From assembly GCF_004376175.1 (NCBI RefSeq), contig NZ_SNUY01000038.1, positions 7,206-39,205 of the forward strand: 32,000 bases of DNA. The letters run 5' to 3'. Under the pieces are notes generated by a model. That model worked only from the letters and a program-made list of their open reading frames with translations. It did not search any database and was not told the DNA's origin. This document shows positions 993 through 14,543 of the stretch, one piece after another; the stretch's first letter is position 1; each line of letters starts with the position of its first letter. The translations under genes were made by a program, and so were the position numbers. The stretch comes from Halalkalibacterium halodurans. GTDB taxonomy: Bacteria; Bacillota; Bacilli; Bacillales; Bacillaceae_D.

Positions 993-1472
993 TCAACGAA
1001 TAGCCACATACACGTCAATTTCGTTCGTCGCTTCGTCAGGCTTGTACCGTTCATCCCACACTTCAAAATCATAGCCAGCTGGTTGGTATGGCTGTTTTCC
1101 CATCCATGTTCCATAGAGTGCATCATACGTTTTGTAAAGTTCAGCTTCCAGCCCTCGGTGGGTCGCCATTACATATTGGTGGCTTGGAACCGTATGTACG
1201 ATCATTTCCGCTGGTACATCTTTCGGTTCTGCCACTTTATAGCCGATCACTTGCGTAAAACGATCCACATTCGGATTAAAGTTTGGCTTCATGTCATAAA
1301 GCTGAATCAAATAGATTTCTTCCCCTACCCTTTTCTGAACCAATGATTGATTTTCAAGCAATCGGTGTAACGTCTTTTTCCCGAGCTGCTGTTCCTCAAT
1401 TTCTTGTAAATTAGCTTTCAATTGATATCCTATAACCGTAAAAGCATCGATTGATTTTAGTTGAGGGTTCAT
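993..1472 (-). CDS. GyrI-like (SbmC / AraC-effector-binding type) small-molecule-binding protein
   Basis: 159-aa ORF of typical GyrI-like size and pattern (..FTVIGYQLK.., ..THRGLEAELYKTYDALYGTWM.., YDFEVWDERY). Its start overlaps the upstream stop (ATGA at 1469-1472), implying translational coupling. Confidence 0.75.
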   Translation of the reverse strand: MNPQLKSIDAFTVIGYQLKANLQEIEEQQLGKKTLHRLLENQSLVQKRVGEEIYLIQLYDMKPNFNPNVDRFTQVIGYKVAEPKDVPAEMIVHTVPSHQYVMATHRGLEAELYKTYDALYGTWMGKQPYQPAGYDFEVWDERYKPDEATNEIDVYVAIR

Positions 1473-1855
1473 CCTTCTCCCACCTTTACATCACATTGAA
1501 CATTAAATAAATTCCCATCTAGATCGTAAAAATCTAAAAAAGCATTCCCTTCCCCATCTTCATGAATCTCTTCCACTTGAACATCATGCTTCTTTAAGTG
1601 ACCGTATAGCTTATAAATGTCATCCGTTTGAAAGCCAATCACCCCATGAGGCTTGTAGTTATAGGAAAAAGTAGCGGTCGTGTCATGGCTTGTTTCGCGC
1701 AAAAAGACCATTTGCCCAGAAGGGAGGTTCATTTGAGCCAAGTCCTCATCTTCACTATGCCAAATGAATTCCATACCTAGCACATCCGTATACCAACGAA
1801 TCGCCCGATCCATCGACTTGACTGGGACGATCCCATAGATGATCTGTTGTAGCAT
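1469..1855 (-). CDS. VOC (glyoxalase/bleomycin-resistance/dioxygenase) family protein, paralog 4 of 4
   Basis: 128 aa. N-terminal motif VPVKSMDRAIRWYTDVLGMEF and C-terminal FLDFYDLDGNLFNV are typical of the VOC beta-alpha-beta-beta-beta fold. Confidence 0.8.
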   Translation of the reverse strand: MLQQIIYGIVPVKSMDRAIRWYTDVLGMEFIWHSEDEDLAQMNLPSGQMVFLRETSHDTTATFSYNYKPHGVIGFQTDDIYKLYGHLKKHDVQVEEIHEDGEGNAFLDFYDLDGNLFNVQCDVKVGEG

Positions 1856-1873: not shown

Positions 1874-2243
1874 TCACTTATCGACGATCACCCCAAACCG
1901 ATTGCCATCCACATCGAAAAAATCAAAGCCTTCAATCGGCCCATGCTCATATATGTCAGTGACCTCAACACCTTTGTCCTTTAAGGATTAAATGATAAGC
2001 TACTAAATCGTCCGTAGTAAAATTGTAGTAGCTGTTTTTGTACGTATCCGTTACCGTAAATTCAAGTGGTTGTTTCTCTTTCACCGTCACTAAACTTACA
2101 TATTGCTTATGCTCCTCAAAATAAAAGTCTGCTCCCATCTCCTCTGGCCAAGTTCCCACATGATTTAACTCGAGCACATCTCGATAAAACGCAATCGACT
2201 TTTGCAAATGAACGACCGGTACGAACACAGCACCAATTCTCAT
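1874..2243 (-). pseudogene. VOC family paralog 3 of 4, interrupted by a 1-nt frameshift
   Basis: The track ORF 1965-2306 ends ...DDLVAYHLILKGQRC*. Shifting one frame at the GG at 1985-1986 continues LKDKGVEVTDIYEHGPIEGFDFFDVDGNRFGVIVDK* (stop 1874-1876), which matches the C-termini of the three neighbouring paralogs. The likely start is ATG 2243, after GGAGAGGTG. Confidence 0.65.
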
Positions 2244-2262: not shown

Positions 2263-2658
2263 TTATTCCTTCGGCCAGCCTTCCCAAATATAAGACCGAT
2301 GTCCATCTAAATCTTTCACGATAAAGCTATAACCTCCCCCTTCTTTATAAACCATTTCCCCAACGGGTACGCCTTTATCTTTTAGGTCCGTATAAAAAGC
2401 ATGAATGTCGTCGACGCGAAACGTTAACACCGCCTTCAGTTCCCCATTCTTATTTCGAAACGACAGATTGGGGACGTCGTCGCAACGAATTAACCCTAGC
2501 CCAATGCTACCATTCACGTTCAACCATGCTTCATCGTCGCCTTCTTGAAATGGAAAAGTAAACGCCAAACCAAGCATCGATTGATACCATTCGACTGCTT
2601 TTTCAAGATTGGAAACAGGCAATTGGATCACTGGAATGTCTAGTGCTTTTCTTGACAT
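2263..2658 (-). CDS. VOC family protein, paralog 2 of 4
   Basis: Motifs VIQLPVSNLEKAVEWYQSMLGLAF and GGGYSFIVKDLDGHRSYIW. Start moved to ATG 2658 (RBS GAAAGGGGA) rather than the track's 2712. Confidence 0.8.
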   Translation of the reverse strand: MSRKALDIPVIQLPVSNLEKAVEWYQSMLGLAFTFPFQEGDDEAWLNVNGSIGLGLIRCDDVPNLSFRNKNGELKAVLTFRVDDIHAFYTDLKDKGVPVGEMVYKEGGGYSFIVKDLDGHRSYIWEGWPKE

Positions 2659-2683
2659 CTTTTTTCGTGTCCCCTTTCTTCGA

Positions 2684-3058
2684 TCATGTGACGACCCCAA
2701 AATGATTTCCATCTAAATCGATTAGATCGAAGCCGCGAACCTTTCCATAATCGTGAATCTCGCCAACATTGGCACCTTTTGAGGAAAGAAGTTGGTGAGC
2801 CTTTCCTACATCATTCGTATGAAAGTTAAAATAGACATTCACCTCATAATCGTTCTGCGGAAACTTAGGTTGTTCGATGTCTTCACATGTCACGAGACAA
2901 AACGTCACCGTCCCATCGCCCACTTTTAACACATTGGCAGCTGGGCTATCATCGTGAATCATTTCAAAGCCTAGCATCTCTTTGTACCAATCCGTTGCTT
3001 TTGCTAAGTGACGCACAGGTATGAAAATGCCGACACCGTAAAGTAAGTCTATGTTCAT
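2684..3058 (-). CDS. VOC family protein, paralog 1 of 4
   Basis: 124 aa with IFIPVRHLAKATDWYKEMLGFEM and RGFDLIDLDGNHFGVV. RBS AAAAAGGAGGGG upstream. Confidence 0.8.
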   Translation of the reverse strand: MNIDLLYGVGIFIPVRHLAKATDWYKEMLGFEMIHDDSPAANVLKVGDGTVTFCLVTCEDIEQPKFPQNDYEVNVYFNFHTNDVGKAHQLLSSKGANVGEIHDYGKVRGFDLIDLDGNHFGVVT

Positions 3059-3090: not shown

Positions 3091-3117
3091 AACGAAGGGA
3101 TGAAGCAATACCTTACA
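3091..3117 (-). promoter_or_regulatory. possible ECF-type promoter in front of the VOC genes
   Basis: Minus strand reads TGTAAG-N17-CGTT in the 75-nt gap between the sigma gene and the first VOC gene. It resembles the B. subtilis ECF pattern (tGnAAC-N16-17-CGTx). Motif match only. Confidence 0.25.
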
Positions 3118-3133
3118 CCACATGGTAAAAAAA

Positions 3134-3862
3134 TTATGTACAAATCATTAGCACATGACCGTCTGGATCAATCACTTGAAAACAAAGGGTGTAACCAATC
3201 GAACGCCCTTTTCTTACTTCAATCCCCGCCCGGCTTAGGGCGCAATAGGATTCATAGATAAGTCTCGGGTTTTTTGTACGAAACCCTTTGAGGAATTGTT
3301 CGAACATCGTGGAATCGATTTTTTCAGCACGAACCGATGGACCGATCTGCGGTTCCATATCTGAATAAGAGCGAACTTGTAAATAACGCTGGAGCTTTTT
3401 CTTCGCACGATGCAACGTCGTATACACGTTCGACTCAGATTCATTCATTAAGGTCGCCGTCTCTTTCGCGGTAAAAGCAAATACGTTAGATAGTAAAAGA
3501 GCAACGAATTGTTTTATTGTTAAATACTCCGCGAGCACTTCTAAAAGCTCTCGACTCTCATATTCTTCGTGAAAGTGTAGCTCCTGCATCACATCGTCTA
3601 TTGGTTCAACCTGTAGCTGCCTTTTACGTTTTCTATCAATCCACGTATGTTTAATGATTCGATAGAAGAAGGTTTTCGTCATTTTTCGATCAGGTTGCTG
3701 TTTCATCGCTAGGTAGATTTTTATAAGGCTATCCTGAAATAAGTCCTCAGACTCCCATTTATTATGAGTTAACCGCTTACAATACCATTTCATCTCATAA
3801 AAAAATGGGGAGACTTTTTTCTCAAACTTCGACTCATCAAGAGGCTCCTGTTCATCTCTCAT
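3134..3862 (-). CDS. ECF-type sigma-70 family factor with a ~65-aa C-terminal extension resembling half a VOC domain
   Basis: Region 2-like EDLFQDSLIKIY...TFFYRIIKHTWIDRKRKR. Region 4-like LTIKQFVALLLSNVFAFTAKETATLMNESESNVYTTLHRAKKKL. The extension is described under the 3134-3346 finding. Start ATG 3862 (GTGAGG, 5-nt spacing). Confidence 0.8.
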   Translation of the reverse strand: MRDEQEPLDESKFEKKVSPFFYEMKWYCKRLTHNKWESEDLFQDSLIKIYLAMKQQPDRKMTKTFFYRIIKHTWIDRKRKRQLQVEPIDDVMQELHFHEEYESRELLEVLAEYLTIKQFVALLLSNVFAFTAKETATLMNESESNVYTTLHRAKKKLQRYLQVRSYSDMEPQIGPSVRAEKIDSTMFEQFLKGFRTKNPRLIYESYCALSRAGIEVRKGRSIGYTLCFQVIDPDGHVLMICT

Positions 3863-3899
3863 TTCTGCCTCACCCATTCCATCATTTTTTTAAAGGCAC

Positions 3900-4094
3900 T
3901 TATTCTTTGTTTTTTGATTTTCTAAATTGTATGACACACTCTCTACAAATGCATGATTTCCCTACATGCTCTGGTGGAACTAAAAGAAAGATTCCATTCG
4001 GAAACACTTCGTCATTGCACCAGCAATCACCATATCCGCAGTTGTTTCCTTTGCCACAAATCGGGCAATGCTTGTTTTGTTCGCTCTTGGGCAT
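3900..4094 (-). CDS. small cysteine-rich protein (CWC-motif type)
   Basis: MPKSEQNKHCPICGKGNNCGYGDCWCNDEVF...GKSCICRECV carries 8 Cys including CxxC, CWC and CxC..C. Start taken as ATG 4094 because the track's ATG 4130 overlaps the TATAAT box. Confidence 0.6.
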   Translation of the reverse strand: MPKSEQNKHCPICGKGNNCGYGDCWCNDEVFPNGIFLLVPPEHVGKSCICRECVIQFRKSKNKE

Positions 4095-4177
4095 GAGATT
4101 TCCCTGCTTTCTGTTCGAATCTTCTCTCATTATAAGAAATAAAGTGGTTGTAATCTATATGGAGCTTCTAGTAAATG

Positions 4178-4448: not shown

Positions 4449-5813
4449 CTATAGATAGGTTGCTAGCGATGAAGCAATCGCAAAATAGAGGAGTAGACCG
4501 ACTATGTCATTAATCGTTGTAATGAATGGGCCTGAAGCAACGGTAGGATCTATACGTAATTTATGAATAATGATCGGGATGATTGTGCCCGTCATTGTTG
4601 AGATGACGACCGTGCCAAAAAGCGCTGTTCCAACGATCAGCCCAAGAGCCATGTTGCCAAAGCCATAAAATTGAGCTAGCAACGCGGCAAAGAGTCCGCA
4701 CACGATCCCCATAATAAGCCCGGTCAACAGCTCTCGTTTAATCATTCGTCGACACGTTGGATGTTTCAGCTTTTCTAAGGTTAACTGCCTGACGACAACC
4801 GCTAATGACTGCGTCCCTGTATTCCCTCCCATATCGGTTATGAGTGGGATGAAAATGGCAAGTAACGCAAGCTGGGCAAGTGTGTCTTCAAAGTGTTGAA
4901 CGACGCTTGCAGTCGCCATCCCAAAAACCATTAATAGAAGAAGCCAAGGTAAACGTTTCATTGCTGCTTTGATTGGATGAACTTCTAGATTGATCGAACC
5001 CTTTGCCCCTGCCAGTTCCTCAAAATCTCCGGTTACTTCATCCTCCACAACGTCCATGACATCATCTACTGTCACGATCCCGATCATTTGATTGGTCTCT
5101 GTTGTGACGGGGATCGCGACAATGTCATAGTCACGTATCAGTTGTACAACCTCCCGCTGATCTGTATGGGGAAAAACAGAGATCACGTGCTTTTTCATTA
5201 GCTGTCGGACCGTTTCATGTAATGAAGAGGTTAAGACATCTTTTAACGAGAGGACACCCATCAGTTGATTGTTCTCGTTTACAACATAAAGGTAGTAGAT
5301 CATTTCGGCATCTTTGCCCTCGGCGCGAAGCGTTTCGAATACATCTGCCACCGTTTTTTCTTGCTGAATGGTCAAATATTCAGTCGTCATCAAGGAACCA
5401 GCTGTCTTTTTCTCATAAGACATTAAACGCTTGATGGCATGGGCCTCCTGTTCATCCATACGATCTAAAAAATAGCCGGTCAAATGATTAGGAATCTCCT
5501 CAAAAAAGTCGGTCATATCGTCTGGTGCCATTTCTTCGAACATTTTAATCGTGTAAGACTCTTTCAGCTCTGTGACAATCTGTTTTTGTTGGTTCCGTTC
5601 CATCCCTCTAAATATAGGAGCAAACTCTTTCGGCCCAATCCATTCATACACTCGCTTCCGCTTTTGAACGTTCAACTCCGAGAAAATCTCCACTTGATCA
5701 ATAGGATGTAATGCAAGAAAATCATCGCGAAATTTTTCTCGTTCTTGTTCTTTTAAATACATGTGTAAGTAAAAGGTATACTCTTCTCTGTTTTTGAAGT
5801 CCAGCATCATCAT
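4449..5813 (-). CDS. mgtE: magnesium transporter MgtE
   Basis: N-domain, a CBS pair (..LMGVLSLKDVL.., ..MIGIVTVDDVMDV..) and a C-terminal 5-TM MgtE domain (ITDMGGNTGTQS, GPFITTINDIVGL). Start ATG 5813, after AAAGGAGGA. Confidence 0.9.
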   Translation of the reverse strand: MMMLDFKNREEYTFYLHMYLKEQEREKFRDDFLALHPIDQVEIFSELNVQKRKRVYEWIGPKEFAPIFRGMERNQQKQIVTELKESYTIKMFEEMAPDDMTDFFEEIPNHLTGYFLDRMDEQEAHAIKRLMSYEKKTAGSLMTTEYLTIQQEKTVADVFETLRAEGKDAEMIYYLYVVNENNQLMGVLSLKDVLTSSLHETVRQLMKKHVISVFPHTDQREVVQLIRDYDIVAIPVTTETNQMIGIVTVDDVMDVVEDEVTGDFEELAGAKGSINLEVHPIKAAMKRLPWLLLLMVFGMATASVVQHFEDTLAQLALLAIFIPLITDMGGNTGTQSLAVVVRQLTLEKLKHPTCRRMIKRELLTGLIMGIVCGLFAALLAQFYGFGNMALGLIVGTALFGTVVISTMTGTIIPIIIHKLRIDPTVASGPFITTINDIVGLLLYFAIASSLATYL

Positions 5814-5832
5814 GAGAAATCCTCCTTTCCTT

Positions 5833-6540
5833 TTACAAATGTTCCACATCAACGGTGAGAACATGGTCGATCTTTTTGATGAGGTAATAAATTTCCGTCG
5901 TATATTGTTTTTCTGGAGCCGATAAAATCAGTTCCACTTGCTGATTACCGTTCTCTAAATCTTTTAATTTCAGATGGCGAATGCGGATGTCGCTCCCTTT
6001 TTTAGCCATGCTCGTTTTTCGTTCAATCGATTGGATTAGTTCCGTCATTCTCATATTCGGCTCCATGACCATCTTGACCGCCACATCTCGTTGCCGAAGA
6101 GAAGAAGGCCCCACTTTTTTCACGAGTTGAGGAAAGACATTTATCGCTAGCATTAAAAGGACTACCATATACCCTGCTTCAATGTAGAAGCCTGCGCCAA
6201 CAGCAATTCCTAATCCTGACGCTGCCCAAATCATTGCAGCTGTCGTCAGACCGGAAATGACATCATTTCGTTTTCTTAAAATAACTCCCGCCCCTAAAAA
6301 ACCGACACCGCTCACAATTTGCGCCGCTAAGCGCATTGGATCCATATTATTAAACATCGGGGTCGCAAACCTGTGAAACGATTCGACCGACACGATCGTT
6401 ACTAGACAGCTGGCAACACAAATGACCATGCTCGTCTTTAATCCTAAAGGTTTGTGCTTTAACTGACGGTCAATACCAATCAATAATCCGAAAAATAATG
6501 CGATGCTTAATTTCATTAACAGTTCTGTCATTTCGTTCAC
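5833..6540 (-). CDS. mgtC: MgtC/SapB family membrane protein
   Basis: LSIALFFGLLIGIDRQ...GLKTSMVICV...GVGFLGAGVILR...GLTTAAMIWASAGLGIAVGAG is a classic MgtC N-domain, followed by a soluble ACT-like C-domain. The start may be ATG 6531 instead of GTG 6540. Confidence 0.85.
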   Translation of the reverse strand: MNEMTELLMKLSIALFFGLLIGIDRQLKHKPLGLKTSMVICVASCLVTIVSVESFHRFATPMFNNMDPMRLAAQIVSGVGFLGAGVILRKRNDVISGLTTAAMIWAASGLGIAVGAGFYIEAGYMVVLLMLAINVFPQLVKKVGPSSLRQRDVAVKMVMEPNMRMTELIQSIERKTSMAKKGSDIRIRHLKLKDLENGNQQVELILSAPEKQYTTEIYYLIKKIDHVLTVDVEHL

Positions 6541-6621: not shown

Positions 6622-6842
6622 CAAAAAGCCTACCTTCTACAAATAAAGGTAGGCTCCCCAAACACACTCATGTTCTATGAGCGAGATTCCCTTCATTCGT
6701 AGAGCTTTAGCACTGTATGGCATAGGACATTGCCAGCTACATTAAAAATCACCTTATGTCGATGATTTCTGTTGACCCATTGGCGTCTCTGGACGTTTTT
6801 GGGCAGCAGCATATCTCCATACAGGAGCCTCACCTAACGAAG
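6622..6842 (-). promoter_or_regulatory. M-box (ykoK/mgtE-type Mg2+) riboswitch, copy A: aptamer ~6691-6842 plus terminator 6622-6655
   Basis: The minus strand reads CUUCGUUAGGUGAGGCUCCUGUAUGGAGAUAUGCUGCUGCCCAAAAACGUCCAGAGACGCCAAUGGGUCAACAGAAAUCAUCGACAUAAGGUGAUUUUUAAUGUAGCUGG...CCAUACAGUGCUAAAGCUCUACGAAUGAAGG. This is close to the B. subtilis mgtE M-box as I recall it. A 10-bp terminator (AGCCUACCUU/AAGGUAGGCU) plus UUUUU follows. Confidence 0.85.
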
Positions 6843-6855
6843 TGGTTGTACGTAT

Positions 6856-6987: not shown

Positions 6988-7292
6988 AAAAAAAATCACC
7001 CTCATACGAATGAAGGTGATTACGTCATGTTTCCATTGTTCAAAAAACGAAAGCCTGATGCCAAGACGATCATAAGAAACGCACACTATAATCGTAAAGA
7101 TGCCCCTTTATCGGGCATAGCGATGGCAATGGCCACTGTTGTCCCCCATTCGTAGAGCTTTAGCACTGTATGGCATAGGACGTTGCCAGCTACATTAAAA
7201 ATCACCTTATGTCGATGATTTCTGTTGACCCATTGGCGTCTTTGGACGAGCAGCAGCATATCTCCATACAGGAGCCTCACCTAACGAAGACA
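6988..7292 (-). promoter_or_regulatory. M-box riboswitch, copy B: aptamer ~7141-7292 plus terminator 6988-7021
   Basis: A second near-identical M-box core. The terminator AAUCACCUUC...GAGGGUGAUU plus U8 lies ~110 nt downstream. Its 5' arm (CUUCAUUCG) is complementary to the aptamer 3' P1 strand (CGAAUGGGG), as expected for an antiterminator switch. Confidence 0.8.
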
Positions 7293-7316
7293 TTTATGAA
7301 ATTTTTTACAACTCAT

Positions 7317-8710: not shown

Positions 8711-9949
8711 TTACCGAACAAGCTTTTTAAATTTCCGTTTGCCCACTTGTACGATGAGGCCATCCTCTATTTCCACTTGTAACTGGACGTCTTCGATTTT
8801 TTCACCGTTAAGCTTCACTCCGCCATTTTGCACCATTCGCCGTGCTTCACCTTTTGATGGCAATAAATCGAGGGTCACAAGCAAGTCCACAATCCAAACA
8901 GAGGATTCGCCATCCCACTTCACTTCTGGAATGTCCGTTGGCAAATCTCGCTTTTGGAAGACCGTTTTAAAGTAATTTACGGCTTCTTCAGCTTCGTTTT
9001 CGCCATGATACATTCGAACAAGCGTAGCGCCAAGCTTCATTTTCGCATCGCGTGGATGGACACTTCCATCTTCTAGGCCTTTTGCGATCGCTTTTACTTC
9101 ATCCATTGATAAATCGGTCGCTAACTCATAGTATTTCACCATGAGCTCATCTGGAATCGACATGGCCTTTCCAAAAATCTCATTTGGCGCCTCATCAATA
9201 CCAATGTAATTGTTTAAGGATTTAGACATTTTTCGTTCTCCATCCAATCCTTCGATTAACGGCATCGTGATCGCAACTTGCTTATCGTTTCCATAAGCTT
9301 CTTGAAGCATGCGCCCCATCAGCAGGTTGAACTTTTGATCCGTTCCGCCTATTTCAATATCCGACTCTAACGCTACCGAGTCATACCCTTGCATGAGCGG
9401 GTAGAAAAACTCATGGATGGAAATAGGCTGACCTGACTTGTATCGCTTTTCAAAGTCATCCCGTTCAAGCATCCGAGCGACGGTCATTTGACTCGCAAGC
9501 TTAATGACATCTTCAAAGTTAAGCGCGCTTAACCATTTTGAATTATAATGTAACGTTGCTTTTTCCATATCTAAAATTTTTCCGTACTGCTCCACATACG
9601 TCCGAGCATTCGCTTTCACTTGCTCATCGGTTAGCTGCTTTCTCGTCTCAGATTTACCAGATGGATCCCCAATTCGCCCGGTAAAATCCCCGATCAACAT
9701 TTGCACCTCATGGCCAAGATCTTGGAATTGTCGCAGCTTATGAAGGACAACCGTATGACCGATATGAACATCAGGGGCTGACGGGTCCATCCCTAGCTTT
9801 ACTTTTAACGGCTTACCTGTCCGAACCGACTTTTCAATTTTTTCTCGTAAAGCTTCTTCAGGGACAATTTCCACTACCCCACGCTTTAGAATTTCAAGCT
9901 GTCGCTCCACCTCTTGGGTTTGCTCTGGCGTTAACGCTTTTTCCTCCAC
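8711..9949 (-). CDS. tyrS: tyrosine--tRNA ligase
   Basis: HIGH (DVHIGHTV) and KMSKS motifs, a C-terminal S4 domain, a GTG start after AGGAGGA, and a Tyr T-box upstream. Confidence 0.95.
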
Positions 9950-9993: not shown

Positions 9994-10237
9994 TAAAAAA
10001 ACCCCTCCCACATAAGGGACGAGCTTACTCGCGGTACCACCCTTTTTGGAGAAATAGTAGCATTTCTCCCAACTCCAACATGATAACGGCATGCCCCGTT
10101 TCTTCACCAAAATAGCAAAGAAAAAGCTCCAAGCTGTACTTCACGAGTCGCCTTTGTACTGATTTGCACCAACCACCAGCTCTCTTTTTACAGGGAGACG
10201 TTCGCTACTGTCACTCTTCAACGCTCAATATTGATTC
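9994..10237 (-). promoter_or_regulatory. T-box leader, tyrosine specifier (UAC)
   Basis: The minus strand has the T-box sequence AAAGGGUGGUACCGCGAG (about 10030-10047), then a terminator stem plus a U7 run (9994-10024). It also has an AGAGA/GA-motif region and GAAG-UAC-A in the specifier position (UAC = complement of 10136-10138). Candidate promoter TTGACT (10272-10267)-17-TAAAAA. Confidence 0.85.
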
Positions 10238-10377: not shown

Positions 10378-13317
10378 ATGAAGAACGCCCTTTCGCAAAT
10401 CCGTTCTCGCATTCAAACGATTATTACCATATTGCGAGAGAAGAAGATCTTTCGAGGGATTGGCGTAACCTATTTAGTTGCTTGGAACTTAACCCTTGTC
10501 TTTCTCGTTGGCGCCCTTGTCCTTTTCGTGTTTATCGGAAGTGCAGGCGCTGGCTATTTTGCTTCTCTCGTCCGGGATGAGCCTCTCCGCTCGGCAGATG
10601 AGATGAGGCAGGATATTTTTGATTATGAAGAAACGAGTCAAGTGTTCTTTGCAAACAATGTCTATCTCGGGGAACTTCCCGCAGAAGTAGAACGCCATTA
10701 CGTTGCCCTCGACGACATCTCAGAACATCTCATACACGCGATTATCGCCACCGAGGATGAATACTTCTACGAGCATGATGGCATCGTTCCAAAAGCCATC
10801 CTACGCGCAACCTATCAAGAATTTGCTGGCTCTTCTGTCCAAACGGGAGGAAGCACGCTTACTCAACAGTTGATCAAAAACCAAATTCTAACGAGTGACG
10901 TTTCTTTTGACCGAAAAGCGACTGAAATTCTTCTCGCCATGCGCCTTGAACATTTTCTCGAAAAAGAAGAAATTCTTGAAGCTTACTTAAATGTTGTACC
11001 ATTTGGACGGAACGCCTCAGGCAGGCAGGTCGCAGGTGCTCAAGCAGCGGCAAAAGGCATTTTCGGCGTTGACGCCAAAGATTTAAACCTGCCGCAAGCT
11101 GCTTTTATTGCTGGTCTTCCGCAAAGCCCATTCGGCTATACACCGTTTACGAGCACAGGGGAAGTAAAGGAAGATCTAGAGCCTGGACTTAGACGGATGA
11201 AAACCGTTTTAAACCGTCTTTACACCAATGGATACATTACAGAAAGTGAGCTAGAGGAAGCGCTAGACTATGACATACGTGAAAACTTAACAAACCGTAA
11301 AAAATCGCCTATTGAAAAGTATCCATACTTAACCTATGAAGTGATGAAACGTGGAGAAGAAGTCCTCTACAACTTAAAATTAAAAGAGCTTGACGTTGAT
11401 TTAGATGAGTTAGAGGAAGAAGAACGGCAATCACTTTTAAACAATCTTAGAGAAGAAGCGAAACATGAATTACGCCATAATGGCTACCGCATTCATACGA
11501 CCATTGACAAAAACATTTATGAAGCGATGAATAATGCAGTCAAGGACGACTCCCTTTTCGGACCGACGATTGCAGGGGAACAAGAACAAGTCGGTGCTCT
11601 CTTACTGGAAAATTCGACAGGGGCGATCAAAGGGTTCGTTGCTGGTCGCGATGAAGGAAGTGCAGAAGACCAATACAACCACGCGACGCAAGCGTATCGT
11701 CCAAACGGATCAACGATGAAGCCGCTTTTAGCTTACGGTCCAGCGATGGAGATTGGTGCCGCTCAACCAGGTTTCGTCATTCCTGATACACCTGCAACGT
11801 ATCCAGGCACTTCAACACCTATTAACAACTTTGATCGTACGCATATGGGACTCATCTCTGTTCGTGAATCGCTTGCCCGCTCTCGTAACGTTCCTGCCGT
11901 GCGTGCCTTTTTACAGGTGCCACATGAACAATCACGGGAAACGATGCGTAAGCTTGGTTTTCAGCTAAACGACGGAGAACCGTACCCTGCAGCAGCGTTA
12001 GGAGCAACCGATCACAACGTCACAGTAGAGCAAAACACGAACGCATTTGCTACGTTTGCAAACGGTGGTCAATACGTCGAATCCTATATGATCGAAAAAA
12101 TTGAAACAGCAGACGGAACCGTAATTTATGAGCATAAATCAAAGTCAGTTGACGTGTTCACCCCACAGACATCGTACTTAATGATCGATATGATGCGCGA
12201 CGTGCTCCGCGGTGTCGGAACAGCGAATTCTTTACCAGGACGAATGAAATTTTCTGCCGATTGGGCAGGAAAAACAGGAACATCAAGTGAGGTTAAGGAT
12301 TCTTGGTTCGTTGGACTAAATCCGAACGTCACCTTGGGCGTATGGATCGGTTATGATACACCGAAAACGATTCAAAGCCCATGGAATGGCTTACGCTACG
12401 GGCCGCGTACGCAACAAATTTGGGCGCGAATTGCCAATGCTGCTTATGATGAAAATCCTGAGCTGATGGCACCGAATCAGTCGTTCGAAATGCCTGAAGG
12501 AATCGTCCGTCGATCCGTTTGTAGCATCACAGGAACCGCACCATCAAAAGCGTGTGAGCAAGCAGGGCTTGTGACATCCGATTTGTTCAACGCAAAGTTC
12601 TTGCCGAAATCTGGAGATGATGGTTTAGAATCTGCTCGTTACGTCACGATTAATGGAAAAAACTATTTAGCTCTTGATTCTACGCCACAAGAGTTCACAG
12701 AAGCTGGGCTACGGCTATCATCAGGGGCTTGGAACATGGACAACATAGGTAAATATTTGCCAGATAACCTAAAAGGATTAATTCCTGACAAAAAAGCACC
12801 GAATAACGGAAAAACGCCTGGTCCTGTCTCAAATATCCGCTTAAACGGCACGACGCTTCAATGGGATAAACATACAGCAGGTGACATTGTCGGGTATCGA
12901 ATCTATCGAGTGAATGGTGGCTCGACAGAACGGGTTGGCTCTGTTAAAGGAAACGAAACGACATCTTATAACGTCAGCAACGGTAACCATTCTTATTATG
13001 TAACAGCCGTTGATTCGGTTGGTCGTGAATCTAGCCGCTCCTCAGCCGTTGATTCGGTTGGTCGTGAATCTAGCCGCTCCTCAGCCGTTCAAGGAAAAAC
13101 TGCGAGCGTCTCATCAAAGAGTAGCCAGACATCCTCAGATGAAAAGAAAGAGGAGAAGAAAAAAGAAGAGAAGAAGGAAGAAAAGAAAGAGGAAAAGAAA
13201 GACGATAAGAAGAAGCAGGAGAACGAGCAAAACAACAAACGCGAAGACGATAAACCAGATGACGACGGAGGATCCGACGATGGGGATGATGATTCTTCTT
13301 CTGACGATGACCGTTAG
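10378..13317 (+). CDS. class A (bifunctional GT51 transglycosylase/transpeptidase) penicillin-binding protein with C-terminal FN3-like domain and low-complexity tail
   Basis: N-terminal TM. GT51 motifs EDEYFYEHDG, GGSTLTQQL and RKATEILLAMRLE. Transpeptidase motifs STMK, SRN and KTGT. FN3-like LQWDKHTAGDIVGYRIYRV...YYVTAVDSVGRES. RBS AAGGAGG. Confidence 0.9.
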   Translation: MKNALSQIRSRIQTIITILREKKIFRGIGVTYLVAWNLTLVFLVGALVLFVFIGSAGAGYFASLVRDEPLRSADEMRQDIFDYEETSQVFFANNVYLGELPAEVERHYVALDDISEHLIHAIIATEDEYFYEHDGIVPKAILRATYQEFAGSSVQTGGSTLTQQLIKNQILTSDVSFDRKATEILLAMRLEHFLEKEEILEAYLNVVPFGRNASGRQVAGAQAAAKGIFGVDAKDLNLPQAAFIAGLPQSPFGYTPFTSTGEVKEDLEPGLRRMKTVLNRLYTNGYITESELEEALDYDIRENLTNRKKSPIEKYPYLTYEVMKRGEEVLYNLKLKELDVDLDELEEEERQSLLNNLREEAKHELRHNGYRIHTTIDKNIYEAMNNAVKDDSLFGPTIAGEQEQVGALLLENSTGAIKGFVAGRDEGSAEDQYNHATQAYRPNGSTMKPLLAYGPAMEIGAAQPGFVIPDTPATYPGTSTPINNFDRTHMGLISVRESLARSRNVPAVRAFLQVPHEQSRETMRKLGFQLNDGEPYPAAALGATDHNVTVEQNTNAFATFANGGQYVESYMIEKIETADGTVIYEHKSKSVDVFTPQTSYLMIDMMRDVLRGVGTANSLPGRMKFSADWAGKTGTSSEVKDSWFVGLNPNVTLGVWIGYDTPKTIQSPWNGLRYGPRTQQIWARIANAAYDENPELMAPNQSFEMPEGIVRRSVCSITGTAPSKACEQAGLVTSDLFNAKFLPKSGDDGLESARYVTINGKNYLALDSTPQEFTEAGLRLSSGAWNMDNIGKYLPDNLKGLIPDKKAPNNGKTPGPVSNIRLNGTTLQWDKHTAGDIVGYRIYRVNGGSTERVGSVKGNETTSYNVSNGNHSYYVTAVDSVGRESSRSSAVDSVGRESSRSSAVQGKTASVSSKSSQTSSDEKKEEKKKEEKKEEKKEEKKDDKKKQENEQNNKREDDKPDDDGGSDDGDDDSSSDDDR
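13006..13083 (+). repeat. perfect 39-bp tandem direct repeat (2 copies plus 6 nt of a third), in frame within the PBP gene
   Basis: GCCGTTGATTCGGTTGGTCGTGAATCTAGCCGCTCCTCA occurs at 13006-13044 and again at 13045-13083, encoding AVDSVGRESSRSS twice. Confidence 0.95.
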
Positions 13318-13677: not shown

Positions 13678-14543
13678 TCAAAACTTGCCTTGAATCCTTT
13701 TGCACGACCCTCTATTGATTAAAGTCGCATTTATTTTTTCTACAATACCAAGCTGTTCTTTTCCTTCTATCGATTTAATTAAAAGTGTTGTTGCTCTCTT
13801 TGCTATGTCTACAAATGAAATATCTATCGTTGTCAAAAGAGGGGATAAATATGAGGCAAAAAACGAATTATCAAAACCTACAATCGAAATGTCCTCTGGA
13901 ATATTCAATCCTAACTCTGCAATGGCTTTGTAAGCTCCAATAGCCATTGTGTCGTTACTGATAAAATGGCCGTGGGCTTATTTGACCCATTGAGTATAGA
14001 CTTTATCCCTTCGTACCCGCTATCCTCAGTGAAATCTCCTTGAAAAATGTGGTCTTCACTAAGCTTTAATCCATGATAACTTAATGTCTCTTTAAATCCA
14101 TCTAGTCTTTCTTTAGCAGATACTTTATTTAGATTCCCTGTTATAATCCCAATTTTTTTATGTCCGAGTTCAACTAAATGATTGACTGCTTTCGCACTAC
14201 CCTCATAGTTATCTGGATTAATATAAATAGCATTATGTTCTTTACTATATACTTCGCTTGTATCAATCATGGCTATCTTATATCCTTGTTTAATGAGCTT
14301 AAAAATAAACTCATTTTCATCTTCTTGTGTTCCAACAAAAATGGCACCTTCAATCATTTTTTGATTGAAAATACTCTCGACCTTCTTTAAGTCCTCTTTC
14401 GAATAAACAATCGATATGATGACATAATAATCTAATTTGTTGGCTTGATCACTTACTGCATTAATAACGGGAGCAAAAAAGGGGTTGTTGTAGATTAATG
14501 TATCGTCAGTCGTTTTGAGATGATGTGTGCCATCGTTCTTCAC
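13678..14543 (-). pseudogene. LacI-family regulator remnant: no HTH domain, 1-nt frameshift
   Basis: ORFs 13911-14543 and 13678-13947 are consecutive parts of one LacI ligand-binding domain (..NPFFAPVINAV.., ..KKIGIITG.., then NDTMAIGAYKAIAELGLNIPEDISIVGFDN..LTTI). The frames join if one T is added to the T4 run (complement of 13963-13966). Only ~45 nt (MVKSKYLVFISVFSL*) lies where the ~60-aa HTH should be. Confidence 0.7.

What the first reader, a model, noticed from the sequence alone, without database searches (positions are those of the whole stretch)
3134..3346. The sigma factor's C-terminal extension looks like a single VOC half-module
After region 4 (ends about ...HRAKKKLQ), the protein continues for ~65 aa: FRTKNPRLIYESYCALSRAGIEVRKGRSIGYTLCFQVIDPDGHVLMICT. 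This aligns by eye with the second beta-alpha-beta-beta-beta module of the VOC gene two positions downstream: FRVDDIHAFYTDLKDKGVPVGEMVYKEGGGYSFIVKDLDGHRSYIW. A VOC ligand pocket needs two paired modules, so a lone module on a sigma factor could pair with another sigma copy or with one of the co-encoded VOC proteins. That would give ligand- or partner-dependent control, analogous to the in-cis C-terminal regulatory domains of ECF41/42-type sigmas but with a different fold.
Basis: inference. Interest (0 to 1): 0.7.

Follow-up and report, generated by a model that had tools for sequence, protein, structure and literature searches.

The report
Sigma factor tail: SnoaL helix + half-VOC
An alternative sigma factor of a Bacillus-like bacterium carries a conserved 60-residue tail stitched together from the first helix of an older sensor domain and the last half of a glyoxalase-type (VOC) protein. 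That VOC type is the same kind of protein its neighbouring target genes encode, so this is a previously undescribed type of built-in sigma-factor appendage.

Summary
ORF 3134..3877 (-) is a 247-aa ECF sigma factor (sigma2 + sigma4) with a conserved C-terminal domain, residues 187-247.

Its last ~40 residues are homologous to the C-terminal alpha-beta-beta-beta of VOC/glyoxalase proteins:
- hhalign 98%, E 1e-13.
- 38 of 68 family members hit Pfam PF00903 on their own.
- The top PDB hits are all VOCs.

- The piece is not a full beta-alpha-beta-beta-beta module, because the first strand is missing.
- The first ~20 residues are homologous to helix 1 of the SnoaL/NTF2-like extension of a sister sigma clade (97%, E 4e-10) and not to VOC (0.1%). 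The tail is therefore a mosaic.

The family covers 61 species-level loci (Paenibacillus, Cohnella, Bacillaceae) and looks monophyletic. No anti-sigma gene stands out among the varying neighbours. In 82% of loci a VOC gene lies directly adjacent, preceded by a conserved ECF-type promoter (window: TGTAAGG-N16-CGTT, 3091-3117).

The architecture parallels ECF41: fused extension, one adjacent target, own promoter. Regulation in cis is the likeliest mechanism. Pairing with a VOC protein remains possible and untested.

I found no description of a VOC-derived sigma extension in the literature I could search. I rate it a new variant of a known kind.

The parts
3134..3877 (-). ECF-type sigma factor gene, 247 aa including the C-terminal extension. 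The stop codon is 3134-3136. A near-identical database protein (P0001, 242 aa) suggests the start may be at Met6.
   Evidence: ORF list. Pfam Sigma70_r2 and Sigma70_r4_2, NCBIfam sigma70-ECF TIGR02937 above its cut-off. Homologs.
3617..3790 (-). Sigma region 2 (residues 30-87).
   Evidence: Pfam PF04542, E 4e-11.
3392..3550 (-). Sigma region 4 (residues 110-162).
   Evidence: Pfam PF08281, E 2.5e-10.
3326..3373 (-). Poorly conserved linker between sigma4 and the extension, predicted flexible (residues 169-184).
   Evidence: AlphaFold2 pLDDT below 50 for 169-184. Variable in alignment A1.
3257..3313 (-). Extension part 1 (residues 189-207, MFEQFLKGFRTKNPRLIY). An amphipathic helix plus turn, homologous to helix 1 of the SnoaL/NTF2-like extension of sister-clade sigma factors.
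   Evidence: hhalign of extension 1-21 against the sister extension: 96.7%, E 3.9e-10. Against VOC1: 0.1%. Predicted helix. De novo NTF2 hits at extension 4-22.
3137..3256 (-). Extension part 2 (residues 208-247, ESYCALSRAGIEVRKGRSIGYTLCFQVIDPDGHVLMICT). Alpha-beta-beta-beta, equivalent to the C-terminal VOC module minus its first strand, running to the last residue.
   Evidence: hhalign of extension 22-61 against VOC1: 98.2%, E 3.9e-14. Against the SnoaL-like extension: 0.6%. Pfam PF00903 in 38 of 68 members. PDB VOC hits. AlphaFold2 H204-216, E220-227, E230-236, E242-246.
3091..3117 (-). Predicted ECF-type promoter TGTAAGG-N16-CGTT, in the 75-bp gap between the sigma stop codon and the first VOC gene.
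   Evidence: Present at the same place in L001, L002 and L004, once per locus. The motif class lies upstream of the adjacent VOC in 40 of 50 loci (about 37 after removing 3 in-CDS matches): 4.6/kb against 0.10/kb elsewhere.
2684..3058 (-). VOC/glyoxalase-family gene (124 aa). This is the conserved immediate neighbour and the predicted direct target.
   Evidence: Pfam PF00903. Orthologous neighbour in E. clarkii, S. cohnii and B. carboniphilus.
2263..2712 (-). The real start is probably Met19 at 2658, behind a GAAAGGGGA ribosome-binding site.
   Evidence: Pfam PF00903, E 2.6e-9. Start analysis.
1874..2243 (-). Third VOC gene, interrupted by a frameshift near 1975-1990.
   Evidence: Three-frame translation. 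The C-terminal half ...KDKGVEVTDIYEHGPIEGFDFFDVDGNRFGVIVDK continues in another frame.
1469..1855 (-). Fourth VOC gene (128 aa).
   Evidence: Pfam PF00903, E 2.5e-14.
993..1472 (-). GyrI-like/Cass2 small-molecule-binding protein. It overlaps the stop of the fourth VOC gene by 4 nt, so it is probably the last gene of the same operon.
   Evidence: Pfam PF06445 and PF14526, E 8e-18. The same pairing occurs in the E. clarkii locus.

Best explanation
The gene encodes an ECF sigma factor of a Bacillales-specific clade with a ~60-residue fused C-terminal domain. That domain is an evolutionary mosaic. A proximal amphipathic helix comes from a SnoaL/NTF2-type extension, still complete in the sister clade. 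It is joined to the C-terminal alpha-beta-beta-beta of a VOC protein of the type encoded immediately downstream of those sister sigma genes. The most economical origin is a single recombination or in-frame deletion that fused the start of the old extension to the 3' half of a target VOC gene (inferred). Functionally the system is predicted to work like ECF41-type 'one-component' sigma factors. There is no anti-sigma factor. The sigma factor recognises a family-specific promoter (here TGTAAGG-N16-CGTT) directly in front of the adjacent VOC gene(s), here an operon of four VOC genes plus a GyrI-like binder. The fused tail modulates sigma activity in cis: the retained proximal helix would supply the part that ECF41 needs for RNA polymerase binding and activity, and the VOC-derived sheet would replace the inhibitory/sensory SnoaL core. 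Shown here: domain homologies, mosaic boundary, family distribution, synteny, promoter conservation. Inferred: that the promoter is used by this sigma factor, that the tail regulates activity, and the direction and signal of that regulation.
For: VOC homology of residues ~205-247. SnoaL-type homology of residues ~189-207. The sister extension is NTF2/SnoaL-like. Compact, confident fold (helix-helix-strand-strand-strand, pLDDT 91.6). The VOC match runs to the last residue in both proteins (...DPDGHVLMICT* against ...DPDGHIIMICTG*). The short-extension clade is monophyletic and sister to the long-extension clade in a sigma-core NJ tree. The extension is strongly conserved across 68 sequences (F13, Y25, F47, D51, P52 nearly invariant, G54 invariant), which argues for selection. 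Apart from the VOC, the called neighbours differ between the six loci with gene tables and none carries a recognised anti-sigma Pfam family. A VOC lies immediately adjacent on the same strand in 50 of 61 loci, and 10 of 10 sampled pass the Pfam threshold. A promoter motif lies in front of the VOC gene with ~47-fold local enrichment. The sister clade has the same motif class. ECF41 precedent (PMC3426412): one adjacent target, TGTCACA-N16-CGTC, proximal extension required, distal part inhibitory, adjacent enzyme not a regulator.
Against: There are no experimental data for any member. The relaxed promoter pattern was derived from the same loci on which it was counted, although the background rate was measured. 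Membership of the sigma core in the ECF41/56 neighbourhood rests only on sub-threshold NCBIfam and Pfam hits. By sequence the closest solved sigma factors are SigH and SigW, not SigJ. The full-length AlphaFold2 model is mediocre (pLDDT 69, pTM 0.44) and gave no usable information on whether the tail docks on sigma2/sigma4. Foldseek on the isolated tail was not significant (best E 0.12), although several VOCs matched at 1.9-3.1 A. The NJ tree has no support values. A simple deletion model does not by itself explain how a promoter came to lie between the fused gene and the next VOC.
Confidence: 0.6

Rival explanations
1. Pairing in trans. The half-VOC tail docks onto a VOC protein from its own regulon, or onto a VOC half-site exposed in a dimer, by sheet complementation. 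The enzyme or binder then acts as a ligand-dependent anti-sigma or co-factor, which gives product feedback.
For: VOC pockets are built from paired modules, and small VOCs dimerise through module pairing (established knowledge of the superfamily). The tail derives from the same protein type that the sigma factor regulates. Sigma and VOC genes are often separated by 0-25 nt or overlap, as sigma/anti-sigma pairs do. One metagenomic protein, P0028, carries sigma4, the tail and a complete VOC in a single chain.
Against: The adjacent VOCs are complete two-module proteins with no missing half to be complemented. The tail lacks the first strand and instead has an extra helix packed on the sheet, and it folds confidently as a monomer. 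The adjacent VOC subtype varies across the family while the tail stays constant. In ECF41 the adjacent enzyme had no effect on signalling (PMC3426412). P0028 is a single N-terminally truncated sequence whose contig could not be retrieved. No complex prediction could be run.
Confidence: 0.2
2. Homodimerisation. Two sigma molecules pair their half-VOC tails into a pseudo-VOC domain, with or without a ligand, and this switches the sigma factor between inactive dimer and active monomer.
For: A lone partial VOC sheet normally needs a partner module. Wecke et al. discussed inter- or intramolecular interactions as a possibility for ECF41 extensions (PMC3426412).
Against: There is no direct evidence. 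The monomer model is compact and confident. The missing first strand makes canonical module pairing doubtful.
Confidence: 0.08
3. Evolutionary relic. The tail is a leftover of a deletion or fusion accident with no regulatory role, and the sigma factor is controlled only at the level of its own transcription.
For: The mosaic structure looks like a recombination product. An ECF41 truncated after the proximal part is already highly active (PMC3426412), so a sigma factor with only the proximal helix could function.
Against: The VOC-derived part is conserved over 61 or more species-level lineages, with one invariant and several nearly invariant residues and no truncated variants other than obvious frameshifts. 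It has a confident predicted fold. A neutral relic would be expected to decay or be lost.
Confidence: 0.1
4. The tail is simply a shortened SnoaL/NTF2 domain, and the VOC resemblance is a convergent beta-hairpin motif (DPDG).
For: Helix 1 is SnoaL-like. NTF2 domains also end in a D-G hairpin. The helix-helix-strand-strand-strand order superficially resembles half an NTF2 cone.
Against: Extension 22-61 against the SnoaL-like sister extension gives probability 0.6%, against 98.2% for VOC1. 0 of 68 members hit any SnoaL/NTF2 Pfam family, while 38 hit Glyoxalase. The VOC match covers the helix and all three strands, not only the hairpin. Foldseek NTF2 matches have rmsd 8-11 A.
Confidence: 0.02

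Closest known systems
ECF41 sigma factors (e.g. Ecf41Bli of B. licheniformis, SigJ of M. tuberculosis) with a fused SnoaL_2 C-terminal extension
   Same: No anti-sigma factor. A fused C-terminal domain after a flexible linker. One directly adjacent, often co-transcribed target gene for a small enzyme. A group-specific -35 element plus a CGT(C/T) -10 with a 16-nt spacer (TGTCACA-N16-CGTC there, TGTAAGG-N16-CGTT here). The proximal helix of the tail is homologous to the start of a SnoaL-type extension.
   Different: The tail is ~60 aa rather than ~100-150 aa. All but its first helix is VOC-derived, not NTF2-like. The targets are VOC genes rather than carboxymuconolactone decarboxylase, oxidoreductase or epimerase genes. 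The -35 sequence differs. Group membership of the core was not established.
ECF56 (SigG of M. tuberculosis, SVEN_4562, SigG1) with a SnoaL_2 extension
   Same: A fused extension, and a regulon that includes glyoxalase-domain proteins (bioRxiv 10.1101/2020.01.30.927608).
   Different: ECF56 is actinobacterial, has a full NTF2-like extension and a different promoter (CGATGAGTT-N14-GGTC), and SigG1 has a partner, RsfG. In the present family the glyoxalase-like element is inside the sigma factor itself.
Sister clade found here: ~311-337-aa Bacillaceae sigma factors (Pseudalkalibacillus, B. infantis, Peribacillus, Amphibacillus) with a ~130-aa SnoaL/NTF2-like extension
   Same: Closest sigma core (up to 42% identity). 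The same first helix of the extension. The same promoter class. In the 8 of 13 loci where one was detected, a downstream VOC1-type gene whose C-terminus nearly matches the window's tail.
   Different: These proteins keep the whole NTF2-like domain and have no VOC segment in the sigma protein.
VOC (vicinal oxygen chelate) superfamily: glyoxalase I, FosA/FosB, bleomycin- and mitomycin-binding proteins
   Same: The helix and three strands of the C-terminal module, including the ...F.F.DPDGN.... motif that ends the domain.
   Different: Only three-quarters of one module is present, with no first strand, no paired module and no metal-ligand positions to speak of. It is fused to a transcription factor, so it cannot form a VOC pocket alone.

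Membership tests
ECF (group 4) sigma-70 family | Only regions sigma2 and sigma4 are present, with no regions 1.1 or 3. | tested here: met
   Pfam Sigma70_r2 (30-87) and Sigma70_r4_2 (110-162) only. TIGR02937 sigma70-ECF scores 62.7 bits against a cut-off of 42.9. The top Foldseek and PDB hits are ECF sigma factors.
VOC / Glyoxalase superfamily (PF00903) | Significant sequence-profile similarity to the family. | tested here: met
   38 of 68 extension sequences hit PF00903 (best 5.5e-5). The window's own copy gave no hit. Family profile against VOC1: 98.1%, E 1.1e-13. PDB VOCs from E 8.8e-5.
VOC / Glyoxalase superfamily (PF00903) | At least one complete beta-alpha-beta-beta-beta module, paired with a second module to form the pocket. 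| tested here: not met
   The match covers only alpha-beta-beta-beta (extension 19-61 to VOC1 76-119). The segment where strand 1 should lie is a helix of SnoaL-type origin. There is no second module in the protein.
VOC / Glyoxalase superfamily (PF00903) | Metal-ligand or substrate-binding residues that form an active site. | not testable with these tools
   A partial module has no defined site. The neighbouring VOCs also lack the usual His/Glu ligands in strands 1 and 8 by inspection. This is inspection only.
ECF41 group | C-terminal SnoaL_2/NTF2-like extension of ~100 aa or more. | tested here: not met
   Only the first helix is SnoaL-type. No SnoaL Pfam hit in 68 members. The sister clade does have one, but sub-threshold.
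ECF41 group | Absence of an anti-sigma factor, and a conserved adjacent single target gene. | tested here: met
   The only conserved neighbour is a VOC gene, immediately adjacent on the same strand in 50 of 61 loci. The gene type (VOC) differs from the ECF41 COE genes.
ECF41 group | Group-specific promoter TGTCACA-N16-CGTC. | tested here: not met
   The motif here is TGTAAGG / TGTTTGG / TGTATGG / CGTATCT-N16-CGTT. The layout is similar but the -35 sequence differs.
ECF41 group | Placement of the sigma2/sigma4 core in the ECF41 clade by the ECF classification HMMs. | not testable with these tools
   The ECF Hub group models are not available. NCBIfam PRK08241 and TIGR02960 hits are partial and far below cut-off (62.9 against 240 bits).
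SnoaL/NTF2-like fold | Alpha+beta cone: three helices followed by a curved sheet of 4-6 strands. | tested here: not met
   The model has two helices and three strands. NTF2 Foldseek matches have rmsd 8-11 A. Extension 22-61 against the SnoaL-like sister extension: 0.6%.

The most novel reading that the evidence does not exclude
The sigma factor has captured half of its own target protein and uses it as a docking handle. The half-VOC tail and a VOC protein of the regulon, or two tails, complement each other into a pseudo-VOC domain whose formation depends on the ligand. The abundance or ligand state of the detoxifying or binding protein would then feed back directly on its own sigma factor. That would be a new principle of sigma-factor control, arising by fusion of a regulator with a fragment of its regulated gene.
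Probability: 0.2. Interest if true: 0.85.

Novelty: new variant of a known kind. Interest (0 to 1): 0.6.

Why it matters
ECF sigma factors with fused C-terminal domains are the 'one-component systems' of the sigma world. The signals they sense are unknown even for the best-studied groups, ECF41, ECF42 and ECF56. This family adds a new kind of extension with a traceable origin. The proximal helix of a SnoaL-type extension was kept, and it corresponds to the region shown in ECF41 to be needed for activity. The sensory or inhibitory core was replaced by half of a VOC protein of the type the sigma factor regulates. That gives a natural domain-swap experiment for asking what each part of such extensions does. 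It also gives a small, well-defined system (sigma factor, one promoter, VOC operon) in genetically tractable Bacillales. Finally, it links the regulator to a class of small-molecule-binding and detoxifying proteins (VOC, GyrI-like), which narrows the search for the inducing signal. If the half-domain pairs with VOC proteins, this would be a new mechanism of sigma-factor control.

Tried and rejected
- Pfam on the window's extension alone gave no hit at E<=10. The homology only became visible with family profiles.
- Foldseek with the full-length model returned only sigma factors. With the isolated tail nothing was significant (best E 0.12). The top hits were Rossmann-type fragments of flavoenzymes with poor rmsd, and VOCs appeared lower in the list at 1.9-3.1 A. 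This is consistent with VOC but not discriminating.
- The truncated-NTF2 reading was considered because of the helix-1 motif and the NCBIfam PRK08241 overlap. It was rejected for residues 208-247 by the split hhalign test and the Pfam counts.
- Giant proteins (2,000-6,000 aa) in the representative search match only the DPDG hairpin many times. I treated them as spurious repeat matches.
- A strict motif, TGTA-N18-20-CGT[TC], was found upstream of the VOC in only 8 of 50 loci. The -35 element varies by subclade, so I used a relaxed pattern with a measured background. Three of its 40 hits lie inside coding sequence and are discounted.
- The second window match to the strict motif (13929-13956, +) lies antisense inside a LacI-type gene with no downstream gene. 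I treated it as chance.
- The search for related loci with the 51-sequence alignment failed because no stretch was conserved enough. It was repeated with A1.
- Contigs for P0028 (the fusion protein) and P0005 could not be retrieved.
- The supplements of the ECF classification paper are not held, so I could not check whether this family already has a group number.
- The sigma core could not be tied to SigJ/ECF41 through PDB sequence search.
Full report
**1. The observation**

ORF 3134..3877 on the minus strand encodes 247 aa.
- Pfam finds Sigma70_r2 (30-87) and Sigma70_r4_2 (110-162) and nothing after residue ~165. NCBIfam places it in the ECF superfamily model, above that model's cut-off.
- Four VOC/glyoxalase ORFs follow on the same strand: 2684..3058, 2263..2712, a frameshifted one at 1874..2243, and 1469..1855. 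A GyrI-like/Cass2 gene (993..1472) comes after them.
The window's extension has no Pfam hit of its own.

**2. The tail is a conserved domain of a real family**

- A word-indexed search found only 12 relatives. In all full-length ones the tail is conserved, with consensus FExFLxGFRxxNPxxIYExY...G.xV...LCFxxKDPDGNVLMICT.
- A profile of the tail searched against 1.84 billion representative proteins gave 95 hits. Most are 225-260-aa proteins with the domain at the extreme C-terminus, and they come from Paenibacillus, Cohnella, Evansella and Bacillus species.
- A scan of one genome per GTDB species returned 80 loci, 61 of them with sigma factor plus tail. The window's own species is not among them; the best match is Evansella clarkii at 55%.
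- AlphaFold2 on the tail alone, with ten sequences, gives a confident compact fold: pLDDT 91.6, helix 3-14, helix 18-30, strands 34-41, 44-50 and 56-60. In the full-length model (pLDDT 69) the tail follows a disordered linker at 169-184.

**3. Residues ~205-247 are VOC-derived**

- The tail profile against the window's four VOC paralogs gives 94%, E 1.3e-7, and aligns to the helix and last three strands of VOC module 2.
- Six non-sigma hits of the big profile search that I scanned (P0056, P0072, P0077, P0099, P0102, P0103) are bona fide VOC proteins. They are matched within their Pfam Glyoxalase domains, mostly over the C-terminal half, at whole-library E-values of 8e-9 to 6e-4.
- When 68 tails are scanned one by one against Pfam, 38 hit PF00903, a few hit other glyoxalase families, and none hits SnoaL/NTF2.
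- With the 68-sequence profile the seven best PDB hits are all VOCs: 3ey8/3ey7 at 9e-5, STM3117, FosA, 9u42 and 4hc5. FosB chains follow at E 0.07-0.17, just below two de novo NTF2 chains.
- Foldseek on the isolated model is not significant. It does list VOCs at 1.9-3.1 A over 36-44 columns, while NTF2 proteins fit badly.

**4. The first ~20 residues are not VOC**

The first element is an amphipathic helix, not the strand a beta-alpha-beta-beta-beta module would start with. While examining sigma relatives that lacked the tail, I found a sister clade of 311-337-aa sigma factors (Pseudalkalibacillus, Alkalihalobacillus, B. infantis, Peribacillus, Amphibacillus).
- Its ~130-aa extension is SnoaL/NTF2-like. 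SnoaL_2 is sub-threshold at E 1e-4, the PDB hits are SnoaL-like cyclases 3i0y, 3f8h and 3f7x, and de novo NTF2 proteins match over their full length.
- That extension begins with the same motif: MLEGFRRKDPDMIASLL against FLKGFRTKNPRLIYESY.
- In eight of the thirteen such loci, a 'VOC1'-type gene follows the sigma gene. That protein ends ...FSFFNVKDPDGHIIMICTG* or ...SFFNFKDPDGNVLMICEEH. The window's tail ends ...LCFQVIDPDGHVLMICT*. In the Pseudalkalibacillus-type loci a second VOC follows, ending IWGGEWKED like the window's second VOC.

A split profile-profile test is clean:

| Tail segment | vs SnoaL-like sister extension | vs VOC1 |
|---|---|---|
| Tail 1-21 | 96.7%, E 3.9e-10 | 0.1% |
| Tail 22-61 | 0.6% | 98.2%, E 3.9e-14, running to the C-terminus of both |

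- The whole-tail comparisons agree.
- The tail is therefore a mosaic with a junction near ...NPRLIY...: SnoaL-type helix 1 followed by VOC alpha-beta-beta-beta.
- In a rough neighbour-joining tree of the sigma core, the long-extension clade is monophyletic. It is sister to a short-extension clade that is monophyletic apart from one frameshifted member. This fits a single origin.
- The simplest scenario is a recombination or in-frame deletion joining the start of the old extension to the 3' half of a downstream VOC gene. This is inference.

**5. Context and predicted regulon**

- No anti-sigma gene is conserved, and the flanks differ between species.
- The constant neighbour is a VOC gene. It lies immediately downstream on the same strand in 39 of 61 loci, immediately upstream in 11, and within 1.5 kb in 3.
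- All ten sampled neighbours pass Pfam's Glyoxalase threshold.
- In the 75-bp gap after the window's sigma stop codon lies TGTAAGG-N16-CGTT (3091-3117). The same motif sits at the same place in E. clarkii, S. cohnii and B. carboniphilus, once per locus.
- Across the family the -35 element varies by subclade: TGTAAGG, TGTTTGG, TGTATGG, and CGTATCT in VOC-then-sigma operons. The 16-nt spacer and CGTT are kept.
- A pattern covering these variants is found in front of the VOC gene in 40 of 50 loci. Three of those are in-CDS false positives. The rate is 4.6 per kb against 0.10 per kb elsewhere in the same loci. The pattern was derived from these loci, so the enrichment is somewhat optimistic.
- The sister clade carries the same motif class.

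**6. How it most likely works**

The layout parallels ECF41: a fused C-terminal domain, no anti-sigma factor, one adjacent target gene, and a group-specific -35 with a CGT(C/T) -10 at 16 nt. For ECF41, Wecke et al. (PMC3426412) showed four things.
- The adjacent enzyme gene is the only detectable target.
- That enzyme does not act in signalling.
- Removing the distal extension makes the sigma factor 20-120-fold more active.
- Removing the whole extension abolishes activity and RNA polymerase binding.

By analogy, the retained proximal helix here is the part needed for activity, and the VOC-derived sheet has replaced the inhibitory or sensory core. I therefore favour cis regulation by the tail, driving the VOC/GyrI-like operon (confidence ~0.6 for the package). 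The homology and mosaic statements alone are ~0.9.

It is mildly supported by tight gene coupling and by one sigma-tail-VOC fusion protein, P0028. Several points count against it.
- The neighbouring VOCs are complete two-module proteins.
- Their subtype varies while the tail stays constant.
- The tail lacks strand 1 and is capped by an extra helix.
- The ECF41 precedent is negative.

I give it ~0.2. No multimer prediction was possible.

**7. Comparison with the known, and novelty**

- The main text of the ECF re-classification lists 19 groups with C-terminal extensions. It names SnoaL-like, TPR, Cys-rich, DUF1835 and multi-TM types plus a short RCE/D motif, and mentions nothing glyoxalase- or VOC-like. 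Its supplements were not available.
- Full-text searches for ECF or sigma factor together with glyoxalase or VOC extension returned only ECF56 work, where glyoxalases are targets and not part of the sigma factor.
- All database names for family members are the generic 'RNA polymerase sigma factor'.
- I rate it a new variant of a known kind: an ECF sigma factor with a fused regulatory extension, with a new and chimeric extension type.
- It is not a member of the VOC family in the structural sense, because there is no complete module. Membership in ECF41 fails on extension type and promoter and could not be tested on core phylogeny.

**8. Caveats**

- Nothing here is experimental.
- The tree lacks support values.
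- The promoter assignment is by conservation only.
- The deletion scenario does not explain the origin of the promoter now lying between the fused gene and the next VOC.
- The family may already carry an ECF group number that I could not look up.

Noticed in passing
window 1874-2243 (-): The third VOC gene of the operon is interrupted by a frameshift near 1975-1990. The ORF ends at ...LILKGQRC*, and the C-terminal half (...KDKGVEVTDIYEHGPIEGFDFFDVDGNRFGVIVDK*) continues in another frame. It is either a pseudogene or a sequencing error.
   Followed up: partly
window 6685-6848 (-) and 7137-7295 (-): Two full-length M-box (Mg2+) riboswitch aptamers lie ~290 nt apart on the same strand (149 and 124 bits). 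They are upstream of an MgtC-family gene (5833-6540) and an MgtE transporter gene (4449-5864). This could be a tandem arrangement, or the second aptamer may control a small unannotated ORF.
   Followed up: no
window 10012-10230 (-): A T-box leader (123 bits) lies upstream of the tyrosyl-tRNA synthetase gene (8711-9949). A class A penicillin-binding protein gene (10378-13317, +) lies on the other side. The same PBP-tyrS-sigma-VOC neighbourhood occurs around the second family member of Bacillus carboniphilus (L005).
   Followed up: no
window 3900-4130 (-): A 76-aa Cys_rich_CWC (PF14375) protein is encoded 22 nt upstream of the sigma gene on the same strand and may be co-transcribed with it. This neighbour is not conserved in the other loci, and no family promoter motif was seen upstream of the sigma gene itself.
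   Followed up: partly
window 993-1472 (-): A GyrI-like/Cass2 effector-binding protein gene overlaps the stop of the last VOC gene by 4 nt. The E. clarkii locus also has VOC genes followed by a GyrI-like gene, which points to a small-molecule-binding or detoxification operon.
   Followed up: partly
window 2263-2712 (-): The longest ORF of the second VOC overlaps the first VOC by 29 nt. An internal ATG at 2658, preceded by GAAAGGGGA, is the more likely start and would give ~131 aa.
   Followed up: yes
P0028 (metagenomic protein, 307 aa, N-terminally truncated): A single polypeptide holds sigma region 4, the half-VOC tail and then a complete VOC domain after a ~9-residue linker. It may be a natural sigma-tail-VOC fusion or a read-through artefact. 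Its contig could not be retrieved.
   Followed up: partly
L079:2510-3908 and L073:2405-3747: More distant relatives of the sigma core (Alkalicoccobacillus porphyridii, Aneurinibacillus aneurinilyticus) have yet another ~80-100-aa C-terminal extension. By sequence inspection only (not scanned against Pfam), the gene immediately after them looks like a ClpP-type protease gene rather than a VOC.
   Followed up: no
L061:3376-4192, L070, L071: In the sister clade the operon is sigma(SnoaL-like)-VOC1-VOC2 with overlapping stop and start codons. The family promoter motif (CGTAAGG-N16-ACGTT) lies upstream of the sigma gene, which implies autoregulation there. In the window the motif lies downstream of the sigma gene.
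   Followed up: partly
L077:2510-3125: Cohnella sp. CFH 77786 has the sigma core (163 aa) and the tail (60-aa ORF) in different frames. This is a frameshifted copy of a short-extension sigma gene.
   Followed up: no
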